A stretch of 31,885 bases of DNA, from NCBI GenBank assembly GCA_023336855.1, contig JAMBLK010000224.1, positions 1 to 31,885 of the forward strand. The letters are read 5' to 3'. A model generated the notes under the pieces. It ran no database searches, was not told the DNA's origin, and worked only from the letters and a program-made list of their open reading frames with translations. A program made the translations under genes and the position numbers. This DNA is from Actinomycetes bacterium (lineage in GTDB: Bacteria; Actinomycetota; Acidimicrobiia; Spongiisociales; UBA5794). Position 1 is the stretch's first letter, and the number at the start of each line of letters is the position of its first letter. Positions 12,078 through 22,329 of this stretch are shown one piece after another.

Positions 12078-13772
12078 ATGACCATGCCAACAGATCTCGA
12101 GATCGCACGCGGTGCGAATCTTCGACGGATCGAGGACATCGCCGAGGAGATGGGTATCCCGTCCGACAGCGTCGAACATCACGGCCGCGAAATGGCAAAG
12201 ATCTCGCTGTCGGCGATCGACCAGATGGGTCCTCCCCGGGCGAAGTACGTGCTGGTCACTGCAACGAACCCGACTCCGCTCGGTGAGGGCAAGACAACGA
12301 TCGCAATCGGCCTCGCTCAGGGGTTCAAGCACATCGACCGGCAGGCGGTGGTGACGCTGCGACAACCGTCGCTCGGGCCCACGTTCGGGATCAAGGGTGG
12401 AGCGGCCGGAGGCGGCTTCTCGCAGGTCGTGCCGATGGAAGAGATGAACCTTCACCTCACCGGAGACTTCCACGCCATCACGGCGGCGAACAACCTCATC
12501 TCAGCGCTCATCGACAACCACATCTACAGGGGCAATCAGCTATCCCTCGGCGCCGATGACGTGACGTGGAAACGTGTGCTCGACATGAACGACCGGGCGC
12601 TGCGGGACATCGTCACGGGATTGGGCGGGAAGATCAACGGTGTTCCACGAGAGACCGGATTCGATATCACCGCGGCGTCGGAGGTCATGGCCATGCTCGG
12701 TCTCGCCACGAGCCTTCAGGATCTTCGGGAGCGGCTCGGGCGCACCGTAATCGGATACGACCGCCACCGAGAACCTGTCACCGCCGAAGACCTGAAGGCA
12801 GCCGGTGCGGCGGCGGTGCTTCTCAAGGACGCGCTGTCTCCCAACCTGATGCAGACGCTCGAGGGCACACCGGCCATCGTGCACACCGGCCCCTTCGCGA
12901 ACATCGCCCATGGCAACTCGTCGGTCGTGGGCGACTTCGTCGGCATCCGAGGCGGGGACTACCTGATCACTGAAGCGGGCTTCGGCTCGGACATCGGGGC
13001 CGAGAAGCTTTTCAACATCAAGAGCCGCGTCTCGGGTCTCGAGCCGGATGCGGCGGTGATCGTGACCACGGTTCGCACGATGAAGTTCCACTCCGGCAAC
13101 TACGCGATTCGAGCCGGCCGGCCGCTCCCCGACGAGTTGCTCCGTGAGAATCCGGATGATGTCGCCGCCGGGACGGCGAACCTCAGGCGGCACATCGCAA
13201 TCGTGCGGCGCCATGGCGTCACTCCCGTCGTTGCGATCAATGCGTTTCCCACGGATCACCCGTCCGAGCATGAGGCGATCAGTCGCGTCTGTGACGAAGA
13301 GGGCGTTCGGTGGGCGGTTGCTCAACCGCACGCTGAGGGTGGTCCCGGCATGGCGGATCTGGCCAGAGCCGTCGAAGACGCTGTGGCTGAGGACTCGCAG
13401 TTCGAACTGCTGTATCCCGACGAGATGCCCTTGCGGGAGAAGATCGAAACGATCGCTACCGACGTCTACGGTGCCGGCGGAGTGAAGTTCGATGCGAAAG
13501 CCGAGCGCCAACTCGCTCGCTACGAGGAACTCGGTTGGGGACACCTCCCGATCTGCATGGCCAAGACCCAGTACTCGTTGAGTCACGACGCATCGCTCCT
13601 CGGTGCTCCCACCGGTTGGATCCTCCGGGTCCGAGAGGTGCAGGCTTCAGTCGGCGCTGGTTTCATCCTCCCCCTGACGGGGACGATCAACCGCATGCCC
13701 GGCCTCGGATCTCACCCCTCGGCTCACAGCATCGACATCGACGAAGACGGGAAAGTGGTGGGGCTGAGCTGA
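12078..13772 (+). CDS. fhs: Formate--tetrahydrofolate ligase
   Basis: Start re-called at ATG 12078 behind AAGGAG; TATNPTPLGEGKTT, RQPSLGPTFGIKGGAAGGG, HTGPFANIAHG, TEAGFG, CMAKTQYS, MPGL. Confidence 0.97.
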   Translation: MTMPTDLEIARGANLRRIEDIAEEMGIPSDSVEHHGREMAKISLSAIDQMGPPRAKYVLVTATNPTPLGEGKTTIAIGLAQGFKHIDRQAVVTLRQPSLGPTFGIKGGAAGGGFSQVVPMEEMNLHLTGDFHAITAANNLISALIDNHIYRGNQLSLGADDVTWKRVLDMNDRALRDIVTGLGGKINGVPRETGFDITAASEVMAMLGLATSLQDLRERLGRTVIGYDRHREPVTAEDLKAAGAAAVLLKDALSPNLMQTLEGTPAIVHTGPFANIAHGNSSVVGDFVGIRGGDYLITEAGFGSDIGAEKLFNIKSRVSGLEPDAAVIVTTVRTMKFHSGNYAIRAGRPLPDELLRENPDDVAAGTANLRRHIAIVRRHGVTPVVAINAFPTDHPSEHEAISRVCDEEGVRWAVAQPHAEGGPGMADLARAVEDAVAEDSQFELLYPDEMPLREKIETIATDVYGAGGVKFDAKAERQLARYEELGWGHLPICMAKTQYSLSHDASLLGAPTGWILRVREVQASVGAGFILPLTGTINRMPGLGSHPSAHSIDIDEDGKVVGLS

Positions 13773-13775
13773 GCG

Positions 13776-13800
13776 GGCAACAGGCAACAGGTGACAGGCA
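13776..13800 (+). repeat. Tandem heptamer array, left arm (GGYRACA x3.5)
   Basis: GGCAACA GGCAACA GGTGACA GGCA, beginning 3 nt after the fhs stop codon. Confidence 0.85.
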
Positions 13801-13865
13801 GATCCAGCGCTGAGGGTCGATCGAACCTATATGGGTGAAGGTGTTGTTGTGGTAGTTGTGAGGGC

Positions 13866-14221
13866 GTGCGGAACTATCGACAGTACGAGATCTGGAAGCT
13901 GAGCCACGAGCTCGCCCTCTCGTCTATCGCGTTGTCCGATCATTCCCCAGCGAAGAGCCTTACGGGATGTCGAGCCAAATGCAGCGGGCGGCGGTGTCCG
14001 TGCCTGCCAATATCGCTGAAGGATCTGGCCGCCCTTCGTATGCGGACTTCGCTCGGTTCCTCGGAATCGCTCTGGGGTCGCTAAGCGAAGTGGACTACTA
14101 CACGCTGATGGCCAAAGATCTCGGGTACATCGACACGGCAACTGCGGATGGCCTGAGTCCGTGTATCGCCGACCTGCACCGGATGATGACACGCTTCCGT
14201 GCGACGGTGATCGACCGGTAG
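13866..14221 (+). pseudogene. Four-helix-bundle protein (23S rRNA IVS protein / bAvd-like family), split by a 1-nt frameshift
   Basis: Frame 1: MRNYRQYEIWKLSHELAL. After 2 orphan bases (13920-13921) frame 2 continues VYRVVRSFPSEEPYGMSSQMQRAAVSVPANIAEG...F.RFLGIALGSLSEVDY..LMAKDLGYI, the family consensus. Confidence 0.88.
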
Positions 14222-14227
14222 GTCGAA

Positions 14228-14264
14228 CCTGTCGCCTGTCGCCTGTCGCCTGTCGCCTGTCACC
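14228..14264 (-). repeat. Tandem heptamer array, right arm, inverted relative to the left arm
   Basis: (CCTGTCG)x4 CCTGTCA CC; reverse complement is GGTGACA (GGCGACA)x4 GG, the same GGYRACA unit. Confidence 0.92.
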
Positions 14265-14325
14265 CCGTGGCTGGCCCCTCTGTCCCGTTCTCTACACTGA
14301 CCTCCGAACCCACAGGAGGCATGTG

Positions 14326-16506
14326 TTGACCACCACTGAGACGCCGCCGGACAGCGACGAGAAGCGCGACGGGTGGAAGGTCATGCCGAGCCGGATTCTT
14401 GCGATTCTGGCCGGGTTGTCGGTCGTGGGGACGCTGATCTTCTGGTGGCTGGGGTCACTTCCGGAAGAGCCTCACTTCGACATCGGCCGTCCGATCTTCG
14501 GGAACATCCCCGCTGTGATCGTTGCCCTTTTCTACGTGACGATCGCCACGTTCCTCGGTGTCATGTTCTACCTCTTCGCCCAACGGGCGAGGAGTTGGGA
14601 GCGGGGACTCTGGGAGAGCCGATCGGGCATGTGGAAGCAGCGCCTGATCGGATTCCGCGATGCCCTGCTGATGCGCACAGTCCTCGAGGACCGCCAAGCC
14701 GGTCTCATGCACTCGATGATCTACTGGGGATTCATCGTCCTCATGATCGGGACCGCCACGCTCGAACTCGACCACATCCTCCCGAGCAGCATGAAGTTCC
14801 TCCACGGCTGGTTCTACCAGGGCTACTCGGCGGTGCTCGATCTGGCAGCGGTTGTGTTCGTCGCCGGAATCGCGTGGGCCTTCGTACGCCGATACGTGCA
14901 GAAGCCGTGGCGCCTCAGGACCAAGACGCGCCCAGAGGATGGCTGGATACTCTTCACCCTCGGATTGATCGGTGTGTCCGGTCTCCTCACCGAGGCTGCC
15001 CGGATTTCGCTGATCGGCCAGCCGTCGTTCGAGGTCTGGTCGTTCGTCGGTTACCCCCTCTCCTATCTGGTCCCGTCGGCGACGGCGGCCGGCTGGCATC
15101 AGACGTTCTGGATCATCCACGCGGTGGCGTTCGTCGCTTTCCTCGTCATACTTCCAACGACAAAGCTCCGCCATGTCGTCACCACGCCGACGAACCTGGC
15201 ATTGGCACCCCGCGATCGGCCGAAGGGTGCCATGAGCGCGGTGCCGAACCTCATGGAGGCGGAGGACATCGAGGTCATCGGCGCATCCACGGTCGCTGAG
15301 TTCACCTGGAAGCAACTCTTCGACACCGATGCGTGCACCGTGTGCGGTCGTTGCACCGATGTCTGTCCCGCGAGCCAGACGGGCAAGCCACTCGATCCGC
15401 GGGAGATCGTTCTCAAACTGGGACAGGTCGCTGCGCAGACGACTGCCGACCCCGTCTCGCCGACGGTGAGCGTCGACGGCGATCTCACCGTCTCGTCGGA
15501 TCTCGTGTTCGAGAGGATCACTTCCGAGGAGCTGTGGTCCTGCACGACCTGCCGAGCCTGCGATGAGGCCTGTCCGGCAGGCCTCGAGATCGTCGACAAG
15601 ATCCTCGACATGCGCCGATACCTCTCGCTGATGGAGGCAGAGTTCCCGTCGGAGCTCGGCAAGGCATACGTCAGCCTGGAGAACTCCTCCAACATCTACG
15701 GGATGGATCAGACGACCCGTGGGGATTGGGTCAAGGAGCTCGATTTCGAGGTCAAGTTCCTCGACGACCCGGGAGTCACAGCGGAGTACCTCTACTGGGT
15801 GGGCTGCGCCGGATCGTTCGACGACCGGAACAAGAAGGTCACGATCGCAACGGCGAAGCTCCTCCACGAAGCCGATGTCGACTTCGCGATCCTCGGGAAG
15901 AAGGAGCTCTGCACGGGCGACCCCGCCCGTCGAACGGGCAACGAGTACGTGTTCCAGGGTCTCGCACTGCAGAACATCGAGACGCTGAACGATCTCGGGG
16001 TCACCAAGATCGTCACCCAGTGCCCGCACTGCTTCAACACCCTGAAGAACGAGTACCCGCAGTTCGGAGGGGACTACGAAACGATCCACCACTCCGACCT
16101 GCTGATGCGTCTCGTCGACGACGGAAGGATCAAGCCGAAGTCGAACGGGCAGACCGTGACCTTCCACGACCCCTGCTACCTCGGCCGCTACAACGACGTC
16201 TATGAGCAGCCCCGGGAGATCGTCGATGCGGTGGGGACGCGAGTTGAGATGCCGCGTGCCGAGAGCGACTCGTTCTGCTGCGGAGCCGGCGGCGGGAAGA
16301 TGTGGTTCGAGGAGGACACCGGCAAGAAGATCAACATCGAACGCACCGAGGAGGCCATCGCGTGCGGCACCGACGTCGTTGCGACGGGCTGCCCGTTCTG
16401 TTTTGTCATGATCGACGACGGTGTGCGCGACCTTGGCGTCGAAGAGACCGTCATCGTCAAAGACATCGCGATGCTCCTCGAGGAGAGCATCCGCTCTGAC
16501 GGGTGA
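14326..16506 (+). CDS. Membrane-bound Fe-S oxidoreductase (NarI-like TM + 2x[4Fe-4S] + 2 CCG domains; FadF/EtfD/HdrD-like)
   Basis: Start re-called at TTG 14326 (or GTG 14323) behind AGGAGG; CTVCGRCTDVCP and CTTCRACDEACP; YWVGC, ELCTG, TQCPHC, FHDPC.LGR, FCCGAGGG, TGCPFC; several TM helices with HSMIYWGF and HAVAF. Confidence 0.92.
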   Translation: MTTTETPPDSDEKRDGWKVMPSRILAILAGLSVVGTLIFWWLGSLPEEPHFDIGRPIFGNIPAVIVALFYVTIATFLGVMFYLFAQRARSWERGLWESRSGMWKQRLIGFRDALLMRTVLEDRQAGLMHSMIYWGFIVLMIGTATLELDHILPSSMKFLHGWFYQGYSAVLDLAAVVFVAGIAWAFVRRYVQKPWRLRTKTRPEDGWILFTLGLIGVSGLLTEAARISLIGQPSFEVWSFVGYPLSYLVPSATAAGWHQTFWIIHAVAFVAFLVILPTTKLRHVVTTPTNLALAPRDRPKGAMSAVPNLMEAEDIEVIGASTVAEFTWKQLFDTDACTVCGRCTDVCPASQTGKPLDPREIVLKLGQVAAQTTADPVSPTVSVDGDLTVSSDLVFERITSEELWSCTTCRACDEACPAGLEIVDKILDMRRYLSLMEAEFPSELGKAYVSLENSSNIYGMDQTTRGDWVKELDFEVKFLDDPGVTAEYLYWVGCAGSFDDRNKKVTIATAKLLHEADVDFAILGKKELCTGDPARRTGNEYVFQGLALQNIETLNDLGVTKIVTQCPHCFNTLKNEYPQFGGDYETIHHSDLLMRLVDDGRIKPKSNGQTVTFHDPCYLGRYNDVYEQPREIVDAVGTRVEMPRAESDSFCCGAGGGKMWFEEDTGKKINIERTEEAIACGTDVVATGCPFCFVMIDDGVRDLGVEETVIVKDIAMLLEESIRSDG

Positions 16507-21185: not shown

Positions 21186-21215
21186 CTTGCAGAAATCTTG
21201 CAAGGATTCTGCAAG
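21186..21215. promoter_or_regulatory. MalR-type operator array (CTTGCA boxes)
   Basis: CTTGCA (21186-91), CTTGCAAG (21197-204), TGCAAG (21210-15); the whole 30-mer is a near palindrome. Confidence 0.75.
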
Positions 21216-21246
21216 AAGGTTCGAAGCCGCCGTACGCTTGAAGGCG

Positions 21247-22266
21247 ATGAGACCAAAACTTGCCGAAGTAGCACAGCTCGCAGACGTCAGTGAAGCGACG
21301 GTGAGTCGCGTCCTGAACGGTCGTCCGGGCGTGGCGGAAGCAACCCGCCGCCGTGTACTCGATGTGATGGGGGATCTCGGCTATCGAGACGTACCCTCAC
21401 GGTCGAACACCTCCGGCGTCGTCGGGATCATCACACCCGAACTTGAGAACCCGGTCTTCGCTCTCTTTGCCCAATCCCTTCAGACCCATCTCGCAAGCCG
21501 CGGAATGCTTCCGGTGGTCTGCTCAGCGACGTCGGAGACGGTGAACGAGCAGGACTACCTGGAACACTTCCTGTCGACCCACGCGGCAGGTGTGGTCGTC
21601 GTCAACGGTAGGTACTCCCAGCCGGAGATCGGGTACGAACCGTATGTCGCTCTGCGTGACCAGGGTCTGCCTCTCGTGCTCATCAACGGCATCCACGCTC
21701 CAAGCCCGTTGCCCGCTGTGGCCGTCGATCTGAAGGCCGCCACCGCATCTGCGGTCCGTCATCTCGTGACGCTCGGGCACCGGAGAATCGGCATGCTCAT
21801 CGGACCGATGCGCTACTCGACCTCATTGGACATGATGGAAGGCTGTCGCGTCGCGGCAACTCGTCTGGGGGTTGAGTGTGACGAGAGCATCGTGTCAGAG
21901 ACCGTGTTCACCTTCGAGGGGGGACAGGCCGGGAGTGCCCAACTCCTGGAGGCCGGGATCACCGGGATCATCGCAGCGAACGACCTCATGGCGGCCGGGG
22001 CGATCTCTGCCGTTCGTGGTTGGGGCGGCGAAGTGCCCGATGACGTGTCCGTGATCGGATTCGACGGAACACCGGCGATGTCCTATACGGCGCCGAAACT
22101 GACAACGCTGCGCCAACCGGTCGACCGCATGTCGGCGGCCGCAAGCGCGTTGCTGGTGGATGCGATCGATGGCAACGGCGTCAGCCAAACCCAGGTATTC
22201 GCTCCAGAGTTGGTCGTGGGCCGATCGACGGGAACGGTGAAACAAGTACTGAGTACTGAGTACTGA
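21247..22266 (+). CDS. LacI-family regulator (MalR-like)
   Basis: Start re-called at ATG 21247; KLAEVAQLADVSEATVSRVLNG HTH, VPDDVSVIGFDG, LTTLRQP. Confidence 0.94.
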   Translation: MRPKLAEVAQLADVSEATVSRVLNGRPGVAEATRRRVLDVMGDLGYRDVPSRSNTSGVVGIITPELENPVFALFAQSLQTHLASRGMLPVVCSATSETVNEQDYLEHFLSTHAAGVVVVNGRYSQPEIGYEPYVALRDQGLPLVLINGIHAPSPLPAVAVDLKAATASAVRHLVTLGHRRIGMLIGPMRYSTSLDMMEGCRVAATRLGVECDESIVSETVFTFEGGQAGSAQLLEAGITGIIAANDLMAAGAISAVRGWGGEVPDDVSVIGFDGTPAMSYTAPKLTTLRQPVDRMSAAASALLVDAIDGNGVSQTQVFAPELVVGRSTGTVKQVLSTEY

Positions 22267-22279
22267 GTACTCAGTACGG
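22245..22279. repeat. Head-to-head heptamer array overlapping the LacI stop codon
   Basis: AGTACTG AGTACTG AGTACTG AGTACTC AGTACGG; contains the perfect palindrome GTACTGAGTACTCAGTAC (22260-22277). Confidence 0.85.
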
Positions 22280-22329
22280 AGCAGCGACCGACGACACCCG
22301 CCGACATCTCGAGCAGTACGCTGCTCCTC

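What the first reader, a model, noticed from the sequence alone, without database searches (positions are those of the whole stretch)
13776..14264. Four-helix-bundle gene enclosed by inverted heptamer arrays: candidate IVS-like mobile or excisable cassette outside rRNA
Seen: 3 nt after the fhs stop come 3.5 copies of GGYRACA; 6 nt after the four-helix-bundle stop come 5 copies of the same unit in reverse orientation. The arms can pair in several 7-nt registers, giving a stem of about 25 bp (with A-C mismatches on the plus transcript that become G-U on the minus) that loops out the whole gene. Established: this family includes proteins encoded inside RNase III-excised 23S rRNA intervening sequences and is related to the RNA-binding DGR accessory protein bAvd; most members have no known function. 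There is no rRNA, reverse transcriptase or transposase here. Inference: a self-contained unit whose repeat arms fold it into an IVS-like stem-loop. It may be cut out of the host mRNA so that insertion is nearly neutral, or the arms may be binding or recombination sites for spread or inversion. This would be a minimal protein-plus-simple-repeat element.
Basis: partly seen in the sequence, partly recalled or inferred. Interest (0 to 1): 0.82.

Follow-up and report, generated by a model that had tools for sequence, protein, structure and literature searches.

The report
Repeat-armed four-helix-bundle gene cassette
A small gene of the family known from ribosomal-RNA "intervening sequences" sits between two ordinary genes, enclosed by mirror-image runs of a 7-base repeat; relatives carry the same cassette flipped, decayed or cleanly lost at this site, and the build is shared by the gene family across many bacterial phyla.

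Summary
A left array of 3.6 GGYRACA units (13776-13800) starts 3 nt after the fhs stop. A right array of 5 inverted units (14228-14264) starts 6 nt after the stop of a PF05635 four-helix-bundle (4HB) gene. The arms are 24 nt long, 88% complementary, and pair in the predicted RNA fold.

- The ORF carries a 1-nt deletion at 13921/22.
- The gene has its own leaderless promoter inside the arms.

This is not a local oddity:
- 16 of 24 copies in this bacterial order, and 30 of 77 in other phyla, lie between inverted 7- or 8-nt arrays. The unit differs from locus to locus but matches left to right.
- Within the genus, the fhs site holds the cassette sense (here), antisense (3 species), gutted, as a gene-less mini-hairpin, or cleanly empty. 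The four copies form one clade.
- Genomes with PF05635 hold about 8-21 such arrays per 100 kb; those without hold 0-5.
- The published Coxiella 23S IVS has tandem heptamers at its RNase III cut site.

I read it as an IVS-type cassette outside rRNA, here inverted and probably decaying. RNA excision and a role of the protein on the arrays are inferred, not shown. This scan has reported the same build in at least 60 other genomes. I found no paper that describes it.

The parts
13776..13800 (+). Left (5') arm: 3.6 tandem units GGCAACA / GGTGACA, starting 3 nt after the fhs stop codon
13850..13858 (+). Promoter-like extended -10 (TGG + TAGTTG) ending 7 nt before the GTG start, with no Shine-Dalgarno sequence: a leaderless start. 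The motif TGnTAnnnN sits at this fixed distance in most copies of the order.
   Evidence: Alignment of upstream regions anchored on the start codon. A sigma-70 consensus scan finds nothing here, so this rests on conservation only.
13866..14221 (+). Four-helix-bundle gene (PF05635, 23S rRNA intervening-sequence protein family). Intact it would encode 118 codons. Here it is broken by a 1-nt deletion at 13921/13922: the first 19 codons are in the frame of 13866, the rest in the frame of 13922.
   Evidence: 104.5 bits for the C-terminal part. Intact orthologues in G019, G006 and G020. Contigs of two other metagenomes carry an extra G after 13921, which restores the frame.
14228..14264 (-). Right (3') arm: 5 units, the reverse complement of GGCGACA x4 + GGTGACA, starting 6 nt after the TAG stop. 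The contig of the probable source run has one unit fewer.
22245..22281 (.). Gene-less heptamer array AGTACTG x5.3 whose unit is self-complementary (a hairpin). It overlaps the last codons of a LacI-family gene. It is one of 293 period-7/8 arrays in this genome.

Best explanation
What it is. The segment 13776-14264 is an IVS-type four-helix-bundle cassette lying between protein-coding genes. From left to right it holds a 5' array of 7-nt units, the gene's own leaderless promoter, a PF05635 gene, and a 3' array of the reverse-complement unit.

Shown here:
- The arms are complementary and pair in silico.
- The same build surrounds most sampled members of the gene family, in this order and in other phyla. 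The unit is specific to each locus, matches left to right, and has a fixed polarity: AGY-phased units in the 5' arm, RCT in the 3' arm.
- The copy at the fhs site is orthologous in four species of the genus. In the window's lineage the whole segment between the arms has been flipped. Most simply this happened by recombination between the inverted arms.
- The ORF has since lost one base and evolved faster, so this copy is probably decaying.
- Sister species have gutted the cassette, reduced it to a gene-less mini-hairpin, or lost gene and arms cleanly.
- Unit number varies by whole units.

Inferred:
- In transcripts that read through from fhs, the two arrays would form a duplex of about 25 bp. 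RNase III is encoded in this genome. It would cut that duplex as it cuts the heptamer-bearing stem of the Coxiella 23S IVS, detaching the cassette from the host message.
- The pentameric toroid protein would recognise the phased units.
- The dispersed gene-less hairpin arrays would be derivatives of such cassettes.
For: Build and statistics.

Family-wide enclosure. The best inverted match between the 250 nt upstream and the 200 nt downstream of each gene averages 17.3 in 24 own-order loci (16 at 15 or more) and 14.0 in 77 loci from other phyla (30 at 15 or more). Cross-locus pairings average 8.1 (6 of 299 at 15 or more). The arms have period 7 in 50 of 64 loci and period 8 in 7.

Polarity. AG outnumbers CT in the 5' arm in 49 loci against 8.

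Orthology and inversion. The 4HB tree puts the four fhs-site copies in one clade (99/99). The window copy is sister to G019 and has a branch of 0.35 against 0.07. The gene is antisense to fhs in G019, G006 and G020, and sense in the window.

Loss and decay. G018, with a clean empty site, is sister to G006, which has the cassette (100/100). G010 keeps a mini-hairpin of the same unit. G007 keeps the promoter remnant and one array.

Frameshift and unit-number change.

Link to the rRNA IVS. The Coxiella IVS has 2-3 tandem GACAGAT units just upstream of its S23p ORF, with the RNase III cut at the first repeat (PMC4990558).

rnc is present. The protein family forms a pentamer: 2gsc has 5 chains, E 5e-38.
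Against: - No RNA data: all runs found are kept as contigs.
- The internal promoter means the gene's own mRNA lacks the left arm.
- There is no G-U over A-C excess among arm mismatches on the sense strand, as RNA-level selection on one strand would predict.
- The fold z-score is only -1.98.
- Inversion is inferred from differences between species. Independent insertion in either orientation into a palindromic site is less parsimonious, given the clade, but it is not excluded.
- The frameshift is seen only in the window and in the probable source run, so an assembly error is not excluded.
Confidence: 0.6

Rival explanations
1. Selfish repeat system of the REP/RAYT kind. The cassette is the 'master' copy of a family of hairpin elements. 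The 4HB protein acts in trans on its cognate arrays, binding them and propagating or stabilising them. The dozens to hundreds of gene-less array hairpins are its non-autonomous copies. This overlaps with the best explanation and differs in giving the protein the causal role.
For: - The unit flanking a 4HB gene is a dominant and genome-specific dispersed family in several genomes. AGTAGATC/AGTAGAGC has 72 arrays in G000 and forms the arms of the intact C195 copy. GAGTAGCC gives 165 hits in G018, 19 in G009 and 0 in three others. CCAGTCT gives 210 hits in G044, and its variant CCAGTCG occurs in G009, whose own arms carry it. ACCGCCC is the top unit in the G057 sample and forms the arms of L004.
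- Array density tracks the gene. Eight PF05635-negative genomes have 0-4.6 arrays per 100 kb, including a congener with 0. Ten positive genomes have 0-21, and eight of those have 7.6 or more.
- The AGY polarity is shared by the gene-less hairpins, 25 to 0.
Against: - A 118-residue helical bundle has no recognisable nuclease or recombinase domain.
- Each genome has many unit families but only 1-4 genes.
- The unit of the window copy is rare, with 3 arrays in the genome.
- The G031 arm unit is not dispersed.
- G041 has the gene but no arrays in 64 kb, and G022 is at background level.
- No target-site duplication is seen at the fhs site.
- The genomes compared are kin and the samples are small.
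Confidence: 0.3
2. Expression control or insulation. The arrays are operator, attenuator or terminator-like sites that regulate the 4HB gene or shield it and its neighbours from read-through. They play no part in mobility or excision.
For: The arrays sit immediately after stop codons and just upstream of the promoter. A tandem array of sites suits a multimeric binder (pentamer).
Against: No T-run or terminator-like site is present. The same arrays occur in hundreds of gene-less hairpins beside unrelated genes. Regulation alone does not explain why the whole segment flips or is lost together with its arms.
Confidence: 0.12
3. Programmed invertible switch (phase variation). The inverted arms are recombination sites, and flipping turns the 4HB gene or the downstream gene on and off within a population.
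For: Both orientations exist at one site among species. One metagenome contig joins 13846 to 14310 on opposite strands.
Against: The two orientations belong to different species whose fhs is 82-86% identical. The contig comes from a mixed community at 85% likeness. No recombinase lies beside the cassette. The promoter flips together with the gene, so expression of the gene itself would not be switched.
Confidence: 0.05
4. Coincidence. Slippage-prone microsatellites are common between genes in this genome, and the gene merely lies between two of them.
For: The genome has 293 arrays of period 7/8. Ordinary genes on C154 and C191 do lie between arrays.
Against: - Those ordinary genes lie between separate complete hairpins, not between the two arms of one.
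- The GGYRACA unit is otherwise almost absent from the genome.
- Matched left and right arms recur at most family members in many phyla, against a cross-locus control.
Confidence: 0.03

Closest known systems
ORF-bearing intervening sequences (IVS) of 23S rRNA (Coxiella burnetii helix 45, Leptospira; 'S23p'), Warrier et al. 2016, PMC4990558
   Same: The gene family is the same (PF05635, four-helix bundle, pentamer). The ORF sits in the loop of a long stem made by inverted flanks. There are tandem heptamers just upstream of the ORF (GACAGAT x2-3 in Coxiella, with unit number varying between strains). The ORF is prone to decay.
   Different: - The window's cassette is not in rRNA; it lies between fhs and an Fe-S protein gene.
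- It has its own leaderless promoter.
- RNase III excision, shown for Coxiella, is untested here.
- The paper describes direct heptamers in one IVS. It does not describe inverted arrays as a family-wide feature, nor dispersed gene-less arrays.
Dispersed heptameric tandem repeats of bacteria: cyanobacterial STRR; GGGAATC repeats of Xanthomonas with 70-75 convergent pairs (Rehm et al. 2015, PMC4692102); TAACTGA repeats of Beggiatoaceae (MacGregor 2015, PMC4679880)
   Same: They are intergenic tandem 7-mers in tens to hundreds of copies, often as convergent (inverted) pairs. The units are genome-specific, and their origin and function are unexplained.
   Different: Neither of the two papers read here mentions four-helix-bundle, S23p or IVS genes (0 occurrences), although the solved S23p structure 2gsc is from X. 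campestris. In the window's genome the arrays include 8-mers, and some enclose a gene.
REP elements and their RAYT genes (established knowledge, not tested against papers here)
   Same: A single- or few-copy gene is flanked by inverted copies of the genome's own dispersed, hairpin-forming repeat. Repeat families differ between related genomes.
   Different: The gene is not a Y1/HUH transposase. The repeats are tandem arrays of short units, not unit palindromes. The window copy's unit is not dispersed.
bAvd, accessory protein of diversity-generating retroelements
   Same: A related four-helix-bundle pentamer that binds nucleic acid and a reverse transcriptase.
   Different: The bAvd profile scores below its cut-off (17.4 against 40 bits). 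The adjacent genes are fhs and an Fe-S protein, with no reverse transcriptase or template/variable repeat next to the cassette.

Membership tests
PF05635 / 23S rRNA intervening-sequence protein (S23p, four-helix bundle) | Match to the family profile above the curated cut-off | tested here: met
   104.4-104.5 bits for window 13922-14191, against a cut-off of 33.8. The G019 orthologue scores 129.8 bits. The family profile matches PDB 2gsc with E 5e-38.
PF05635 / 23S rRNA intervening-sequence protein (S23p, four-helix bundle) | Intact reading frame of about 118 codons | tested here: not met
   A 1-nt deletion at 13921/22 splits the frame. Related strains carry the extra G. An assembly error is not excluded.
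ORF-bearing 23S rRNA IVS | PF05635 ORF in the loop of a stem formed by inverted flanks | tested here: met
   Arms of 24 nt, 88% complementary, enclose the ORF. They pair in both the MFE and the centroid folds.
ORF-bearing 23S rRNA IVS | Tandem heptamers in the stem next to the ORF (as in Coxiella) | tested here: met
   compared with PMC4990558
ORF-bearing 23S rRNA IVS | Inserted in a helix of the 23S rRNA gene | tested here: not met
   No Rfam family in the window. The flanks are FTHFS and a CCG/4Fe-4S protein gene.
ORF-bearing 23S rRNA IVS | Excised from the precursor RNA by RNase III | not testable with these tools
   rnc is present in the genome. No raw RNA reads are available.
REP/RAYT-type system | Gene flanked by inverted copies of the genome's own dispersed repeat family | tested here: inconclusive
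   Met for the second copy on C195: its 8-mer AGTAGATC/AGTAGAGC forms 72 arrays. Also met in G018, G044, G009 and G057. Not met for the window copy, whose unit forms only 3 arrays, nor for G031 L011.
REP/RAYT-type system | The gene encodes a Y1 (HUH) transposase-like enzyme | tested here: not met
   Only PF05635 matches.
Transposon / MITE with terminal inverted repeats | Target-site duplication flanking the arms, and a transposase for autonomous copies | tested here: not met
   Comparing filled and empty sites shows no flanking direct repeat. No transposase lies beside the cassette.
DGR accessory protein (Avd) | bAvd profile match with an adjacent reverse transcriptase and template/variable repeats | tested here: not met
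   bAvd scores 17.4 bits against a cut-off of 40. The neighbours are metabolic genes. The rest of the window was not scanned for a reverse transcriptase.
Dispersed heptamer tandem repeats (STRR-like) | Intergenic tandem 7-mers in many copies and unit families per genome | tested here: met
   293 arrays of period 7/8 with 2.8 or more copies in 2.04 Mb; 26 lie at contig ends.

The most novel reading that the evidence does not exclude
PF05635 four-helix-bundle proteins are the trans-acting partners of the dispersed 7-8-nt tandem-array hairpins of bacteria. The pentamer would read the AGY-phased units of its cognate arrays and would be needed to create, spread or stabilise them. That would make gene plus arrays a selfish repeat system of a new kind. 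The 23S rRNA IVSs would be a special case of it, and it would explain the long-noted excess of heptamer repeats in bacterial genomes.
Probability: 0.3. Interest if true: 0.85.

Novelty: new variant of a known kind. Interest (0 to 1): 0.6.

Why it matters
Three things have each gone unexplained for decades: a widespread protein family of unknown function (S23p/PF05635, related to DGR Avd), the origin of rRNA intervening sequences, and the excess of heptamer tandem repeats in many bacterial genomes. This locus, with its relatives, ties them together in one architecture.

It also offers a natural series at a single site: sense, antisense, frameshifted, gutted, mini-hairpin and clean empty. That series shows what the arms do at the DNA level. 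They recombine, they change unit number, and they are lost together with the gene.

The conserved AGY phase of the units, and the co-occurrence of gene and arrays, give concrete binding and deletion experiments in culturable hosts such as Xanthomonas and Bacteroides.

Tried and rejected
- **G-U versus A-C asymmetry of arm mismatches on the sense strand.** This tests for RNA-level selection. Result: 67 against 75 over 74 loci, no bias. It does not discriminate between DNA- and RNA-level function.
- **Overall purine richness of the 5' arm.** None found, 31 loci against 26. Only the AG/CT dinucleotide polarity is real.
- **Sigma-70 consensus and intrinsic-terminator scans of 13600-14450.** Nothing found. 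The promoter call rests on conservation of TGnTAnnnN at a fixed distance from the start.
- **Rfam scan of the window.** No family found.
- **Naming the organism.** Only hints remain: an Rv1476-like protein, leaderless promoters, 63% GC, and a marine, cold-seep or vent sediment habitat. I do not name a taxon.
- **Sequencing runs.** All are kept as contigs, so there is no test of within-population inversion and no RNA ends.
- **Exceptions to the cognate-unit test.** CAGATCC in G031 is not dispersed. G041 and G022 carry the gene with few or no arrays in the samples.
- **Other gaps of 400-800 nt between inverted arrays in this genome (C154, C191).** These are ordinary genes lying between separate hairpins, not cassettes.
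- **The CRISPR-association mention of the 23S rRNA IVP domain (PMC10910872).** It concerns adaptation modules and is unrelated.
- **Literature searches for a description of heptamer arrays around PF05635 genes.** None found. The library lacks most subscription journals, so this is not proof of absence.

Full report
**1. The observation**

The fhs gene (FTHFS, 806 bits) ends with TGA at 13770-13772. After GCG come GGCAACA GGCAACA GGTGACA GGCA at 13776-13800.

A gene of the 23S-rRNA-intervening-sequence protein family (PF05635) ends with TAG at 14219-14221. After GTCGAA come CCTGTCG x4, CCTGTCA and CC at 14228-14264, which is the same unit inverted.

- Tandem Repeats Finder reports both arrays.
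- The arms are 24 nt long and 88% complementary, in several 7-nt registers.
- Two adjacent units occur 6 times in the window, all in these two arrays; shuffles give 0.14.
- In the whole assembly (2.04 Mb, 349 contigs, 62.7% GC, 83% complete) the unit forms arrays only here and once on contig C253.
- Folded as RNA, 13765-14275 pairs the two arrays in both the minimum-energy and the centroid structures. The energy is -218.2 kcal/mol and the z-score is a modest -1.98.

**2.

The ORF is broken. From GTG 13866 the frame gives 19 residues (VRNYRQYEIWKLSHELALS). The rest of the protein reads from 13922 in another frame. Intact 118-codon orthologues show that one base is missing between the codons for S and V. 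Contigs of two other sediment metagenomes (X2, X3) carry an extra G after 13921, which restores the frame. The contig of the probable source run X1 agrees with the window. So this is either a real deletion in this population or an error of that assembly; the data cannot tell which.

The gene has its own promoter inside the arms. In the copies of this bacterial order, a motif TGnTAnnnN ends 6-8 nt before the ATG or GTG start, with no Shine-Dalgarno sequence, and a TTCCAA-like box lies about 17 nt further upstream. In the window the motif is TGG TAGTTG at 13850-13858. That is the build of a leaderless transcript with an extended -10. A sigma-70 consensus scan does not find it, so the call rests on conservation alone.

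**3. The build is a property of the gene family**

The genome has a second, intact copy at C195:63-380. It is enclosed by inverted arrays of an 8-mer, AGTAGATC/AGTAGAGC.

In 61 genomes searched (the window's own and 60 relatives), 19 of 20 other genomes of the genus carry 1-4 copies. Most other genera of the family carry none.

Nearly every copy has an upstream array and a downstream array of the reverse-complement unit. The unit differs from locus to locus:
- ATTCGCA / TGCGAAT
- CGGTATT / TACCGAA
- GTAGAAA / TACTTTC
- GACACGA / TCTCGTG
- CCAGTCT / ACTGGAG
- the 8-mer GAGTAGCC / CTCGGCTA

I scored the best ungapped inverted match between the 250 nt upstream and the 200 nt downstream of each gene:

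| Set | n | Mean score | At 15 or more |
|---|---|---|---|
| Own order | 24 loci | 17.3 | 16 |
| Other phyla | 77 loci | 14.0 | 30 |
| Cross-locus control (upstream of one locus, downstream of another) | 299 pairings | 8.1 | 6 |

The other phyla are Bacteroidota, Chloroflexota, Acidobacteriota, Verrucomicrobiota, Planctomycetota and others.

The arms have period 7 in 50 of 64 loci and period 8 in 7.

There is a fixed polarity. AG outnumbers CT in the 5' arm in 49 loci against 8 (p = 3e-8). Of the 50 consensus 7-mers, 42 contain AG, followed by a pyrimidine in 34. The units therefore read AGYNNNN on the strand that runs towards the gene, on both sides. The gene-less hairpins of this genome show the same polarity, 25 to 0, though one family dominates that count.

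**4. One site, many states**

In the genus, the interval between fhs and the Fe-S protein gene takes these states:

| Genome | State at the fhs site |
|---|---|
| G000 (window) | cassette sense to fhs, frameshifted |
| G019, G006, G020 | cassette antisense to fhs; G019 also has a toxin-antitoxin-like pair beside it |
| G007 | ORF deleted; promoter remnant and one array left |
| G010 | gene-less mini-hairpin of the same unit (about two units per arm, 18-nt loop) |
| G012, G014 | tiny remnants |
| G018, G001 | clean, short interval with no arrays |

The four proteins at this site form a clade (99/99). The window copy is sister to G019 and has a branch of 0.35 against 0.07. That points to one ancestral insertion, later inversion of the whole segment between the arms (promoter plus ORF) in the window's lineage, and relaxed constraint since.

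In an fhs tree, G018 (clean empty) is sister to G006 (cassette) with 100/100 support. So gene and arms can be lost together without a scar.

Metagenome contigs add further alleles in relatives: one like an empty site (13772 joined to 14302) and one inverted (13846 joined to 14310 on opposite strands). The source-run contig also differs from the window by one unit at 14228.

**5. Gene-less arrays and the gene**

The genome holds 293 arrays of period 7 or 8 with at least 2.8 copies. The largest families are:
- the 8-mer AGTAGATC/AGTAGAGC, 72 arrays, the same unit as the arms of the C195 copy
- AGTACTS, 35 arrays
- AGCTRCC, 42 arrays

Twenty-seven neighbouring pairs are head-to-head hairpins with short loops. 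Twenty-six arrays lie at contig ends.

Ordinary genes can lie between two complete hairpins (C154, C191). Only the 4HB genes lie between the two arms of one hairpin.

The arm unit of a 4HB gene is a dominant, genome-specific dispersed family in several genomes:
- G018: 165 hits, against 19 in G009 and 0 in three others
- G044: 210 hits
- G009: its own variant CCAGTCG
- G057

It is not dispersed in G031, and it is not dispersed for the window copy.

Period-7/8 arrays per 100 kb in sampled stretches:

| PF05635 status | Genomes | Arrays per 100 kb |
|---|---|---|
| Negative | 8 (incl. one congener) | 1.0, 2.0, 2.0, 0 (congener), 3.7, 0, 0, 4.6 |
| Positive | 10 | 14.3, 14, 17, 8, 21, 15, 10.7, 7.6, 5.0, 0 |

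These genomes are kin and the samples are small. The association is strong but not proof.

**6. How it most likely works**

*Shown at the DNA level.* The arms are recombinogenic inverted repeats: the segment between them has flipped. They change length by whole units. They are deleted together with the gene.

*Inferred at the RNA level.* A transcript reading through from fhs carries both arms and should form a duplex of about 25 bp around the cassette. The genome encodes RNase III. In Coxiella, the IVS of this same gene family has 2-3 tandem GACAGAT units directly upstream of the ORF, and the RNase III 5' cut maps to the first repeat (PMC4990558). By analogy the stem would be cut here, detaching the cassette from the host message.

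Two findings temper this:
- The gene's own leaderless mRNA would contain only the right arm.
- Arm mismatches show no G-U over A-C bias on the sense strand (67 against 75; 207 are other mismatches).

That arm similarity is kept by recombination and slippage, and not by selection on RNA pairing, fits the data at least as well.

*The protein.* The family forms a pentameric toroid (2gsc has 5 chains; Lin 2006 as cited in PMC4990558). The AGY-phased tandem units look like an array of binding sites. This is inference only.

**7. Comparison with what is known**

In build, the cassette matches the ORF-bearing 23S rRNA IVS. It fails the defining feature of lying in rRNA, so I do not file it as a member of that class.

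The dispersed arrays match what the literature calls STRR or heptameric SSRs. Rehm et al. 2015 describe 70-75 convergent GGGAATC pairs in Xanthomonas (PMC4692102). MacGregor 2015 describes TAACTGA repeats (PMC4679880). Neither paper mentions this gene family.

The relation of a few-copy gene to a dispersed hairpin repeat resembles REP/RAYT, but the protein is no transposase.

It is not a DGR Avd: the bAvd profile is below its cut-off and the adjacent genes are metabolic.

**8. Novelty and standing**

I reached the family-wide result before consulting the scan's notes. Those notes show that earlier agents reported the same build and the link to gene-less arrays in at least 60 other genomes. Within this scan it is therefore a recurrent finding. 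In the searchable literature I found no description of it.

This window adds:
- the within-genus series at one site: inversion, frameshift, gutting, mini-hairpin, clean loss
- the conserved internal leaderless promoter
- the AGY polarity statistics
- the negative G-U/A-C test
- a presence/absence comparison of arrays and gene among relatives

**Verdict.** This is a real feature, a new variant of a known kind, and here probably a decaying copy.

Noticed in passing
window 22245-22281: AGTACTG x5.3 array whose unit is self-complementary. It supplies the last codons and the stop of a LacI-family gene (21187-22266) and lies 50 nt before a glycogen-synthase-like gene. It is a gene-less member of the same repeat class.
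   Followed up: partly
G000 contig C195:1-480 (locus L001): Second, intact PF05635 gene of this genome, between a LuxR-type regulator gene and secA. It is enclosed by inverted 8-mer arrays of the genome's most abundant unit. At the same site G018 has an orthologue with another 8-mer, and G009 has a different 4HB subfamily with a 7-mer.
   Followed up: partly
window 13815-13828 and 14217-14230: A direct repeat inside the arms: GGTCGATCGAACCT and GGTAGGTCGAACCT. The first lies 15 nt after the left array. The second overlaps the stop codon and runs into the right array. Its meaning is unknown, and I did not check whether other loci have it.
   Followed up: no
L115 (G019 contig C65, just after the fhs stop): A two-gene module resembling an antitoxin plus a PIN-like toxin lies between fhs and the 4HB cassette in G019. 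G007 keeps only its upstream leader. This intergenic site collects small accessory genes.
   Followed up: no
window 14214-14281 in runs X2-X4: Summed contig depth over the right array is 1,300-41,000, against 5-100 beside it. CCTGTCG-type arrays are therefore very common in cold-seep, vent and sediment communities.
   Followed up: no
L127 and L128 (G043, G046; downstream of fhs): In these genera of the same order, fhs is followed by a formate-dehydrogenase-like gene with an in-frame TGA in the motif CNRT-TGA-HAPS, which looks like a selenocysteine codon.
   Followed up: no
G000 contig ends: 26 of the 293 arrays sit at contig ends, so these repeats break the short-read assembly. Copies of the gene or of the arrays may be missing from the MAG.
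   Followed up: partly
G031 (control column): The reversed control pattern (TCTGACC x3) gave 55 hits in G031. That genome therefore has an abundant array family of that unit. I did not check whether it forms the arms of G031's second 4HB copy (C8:220098-220412).
   Followed up: no
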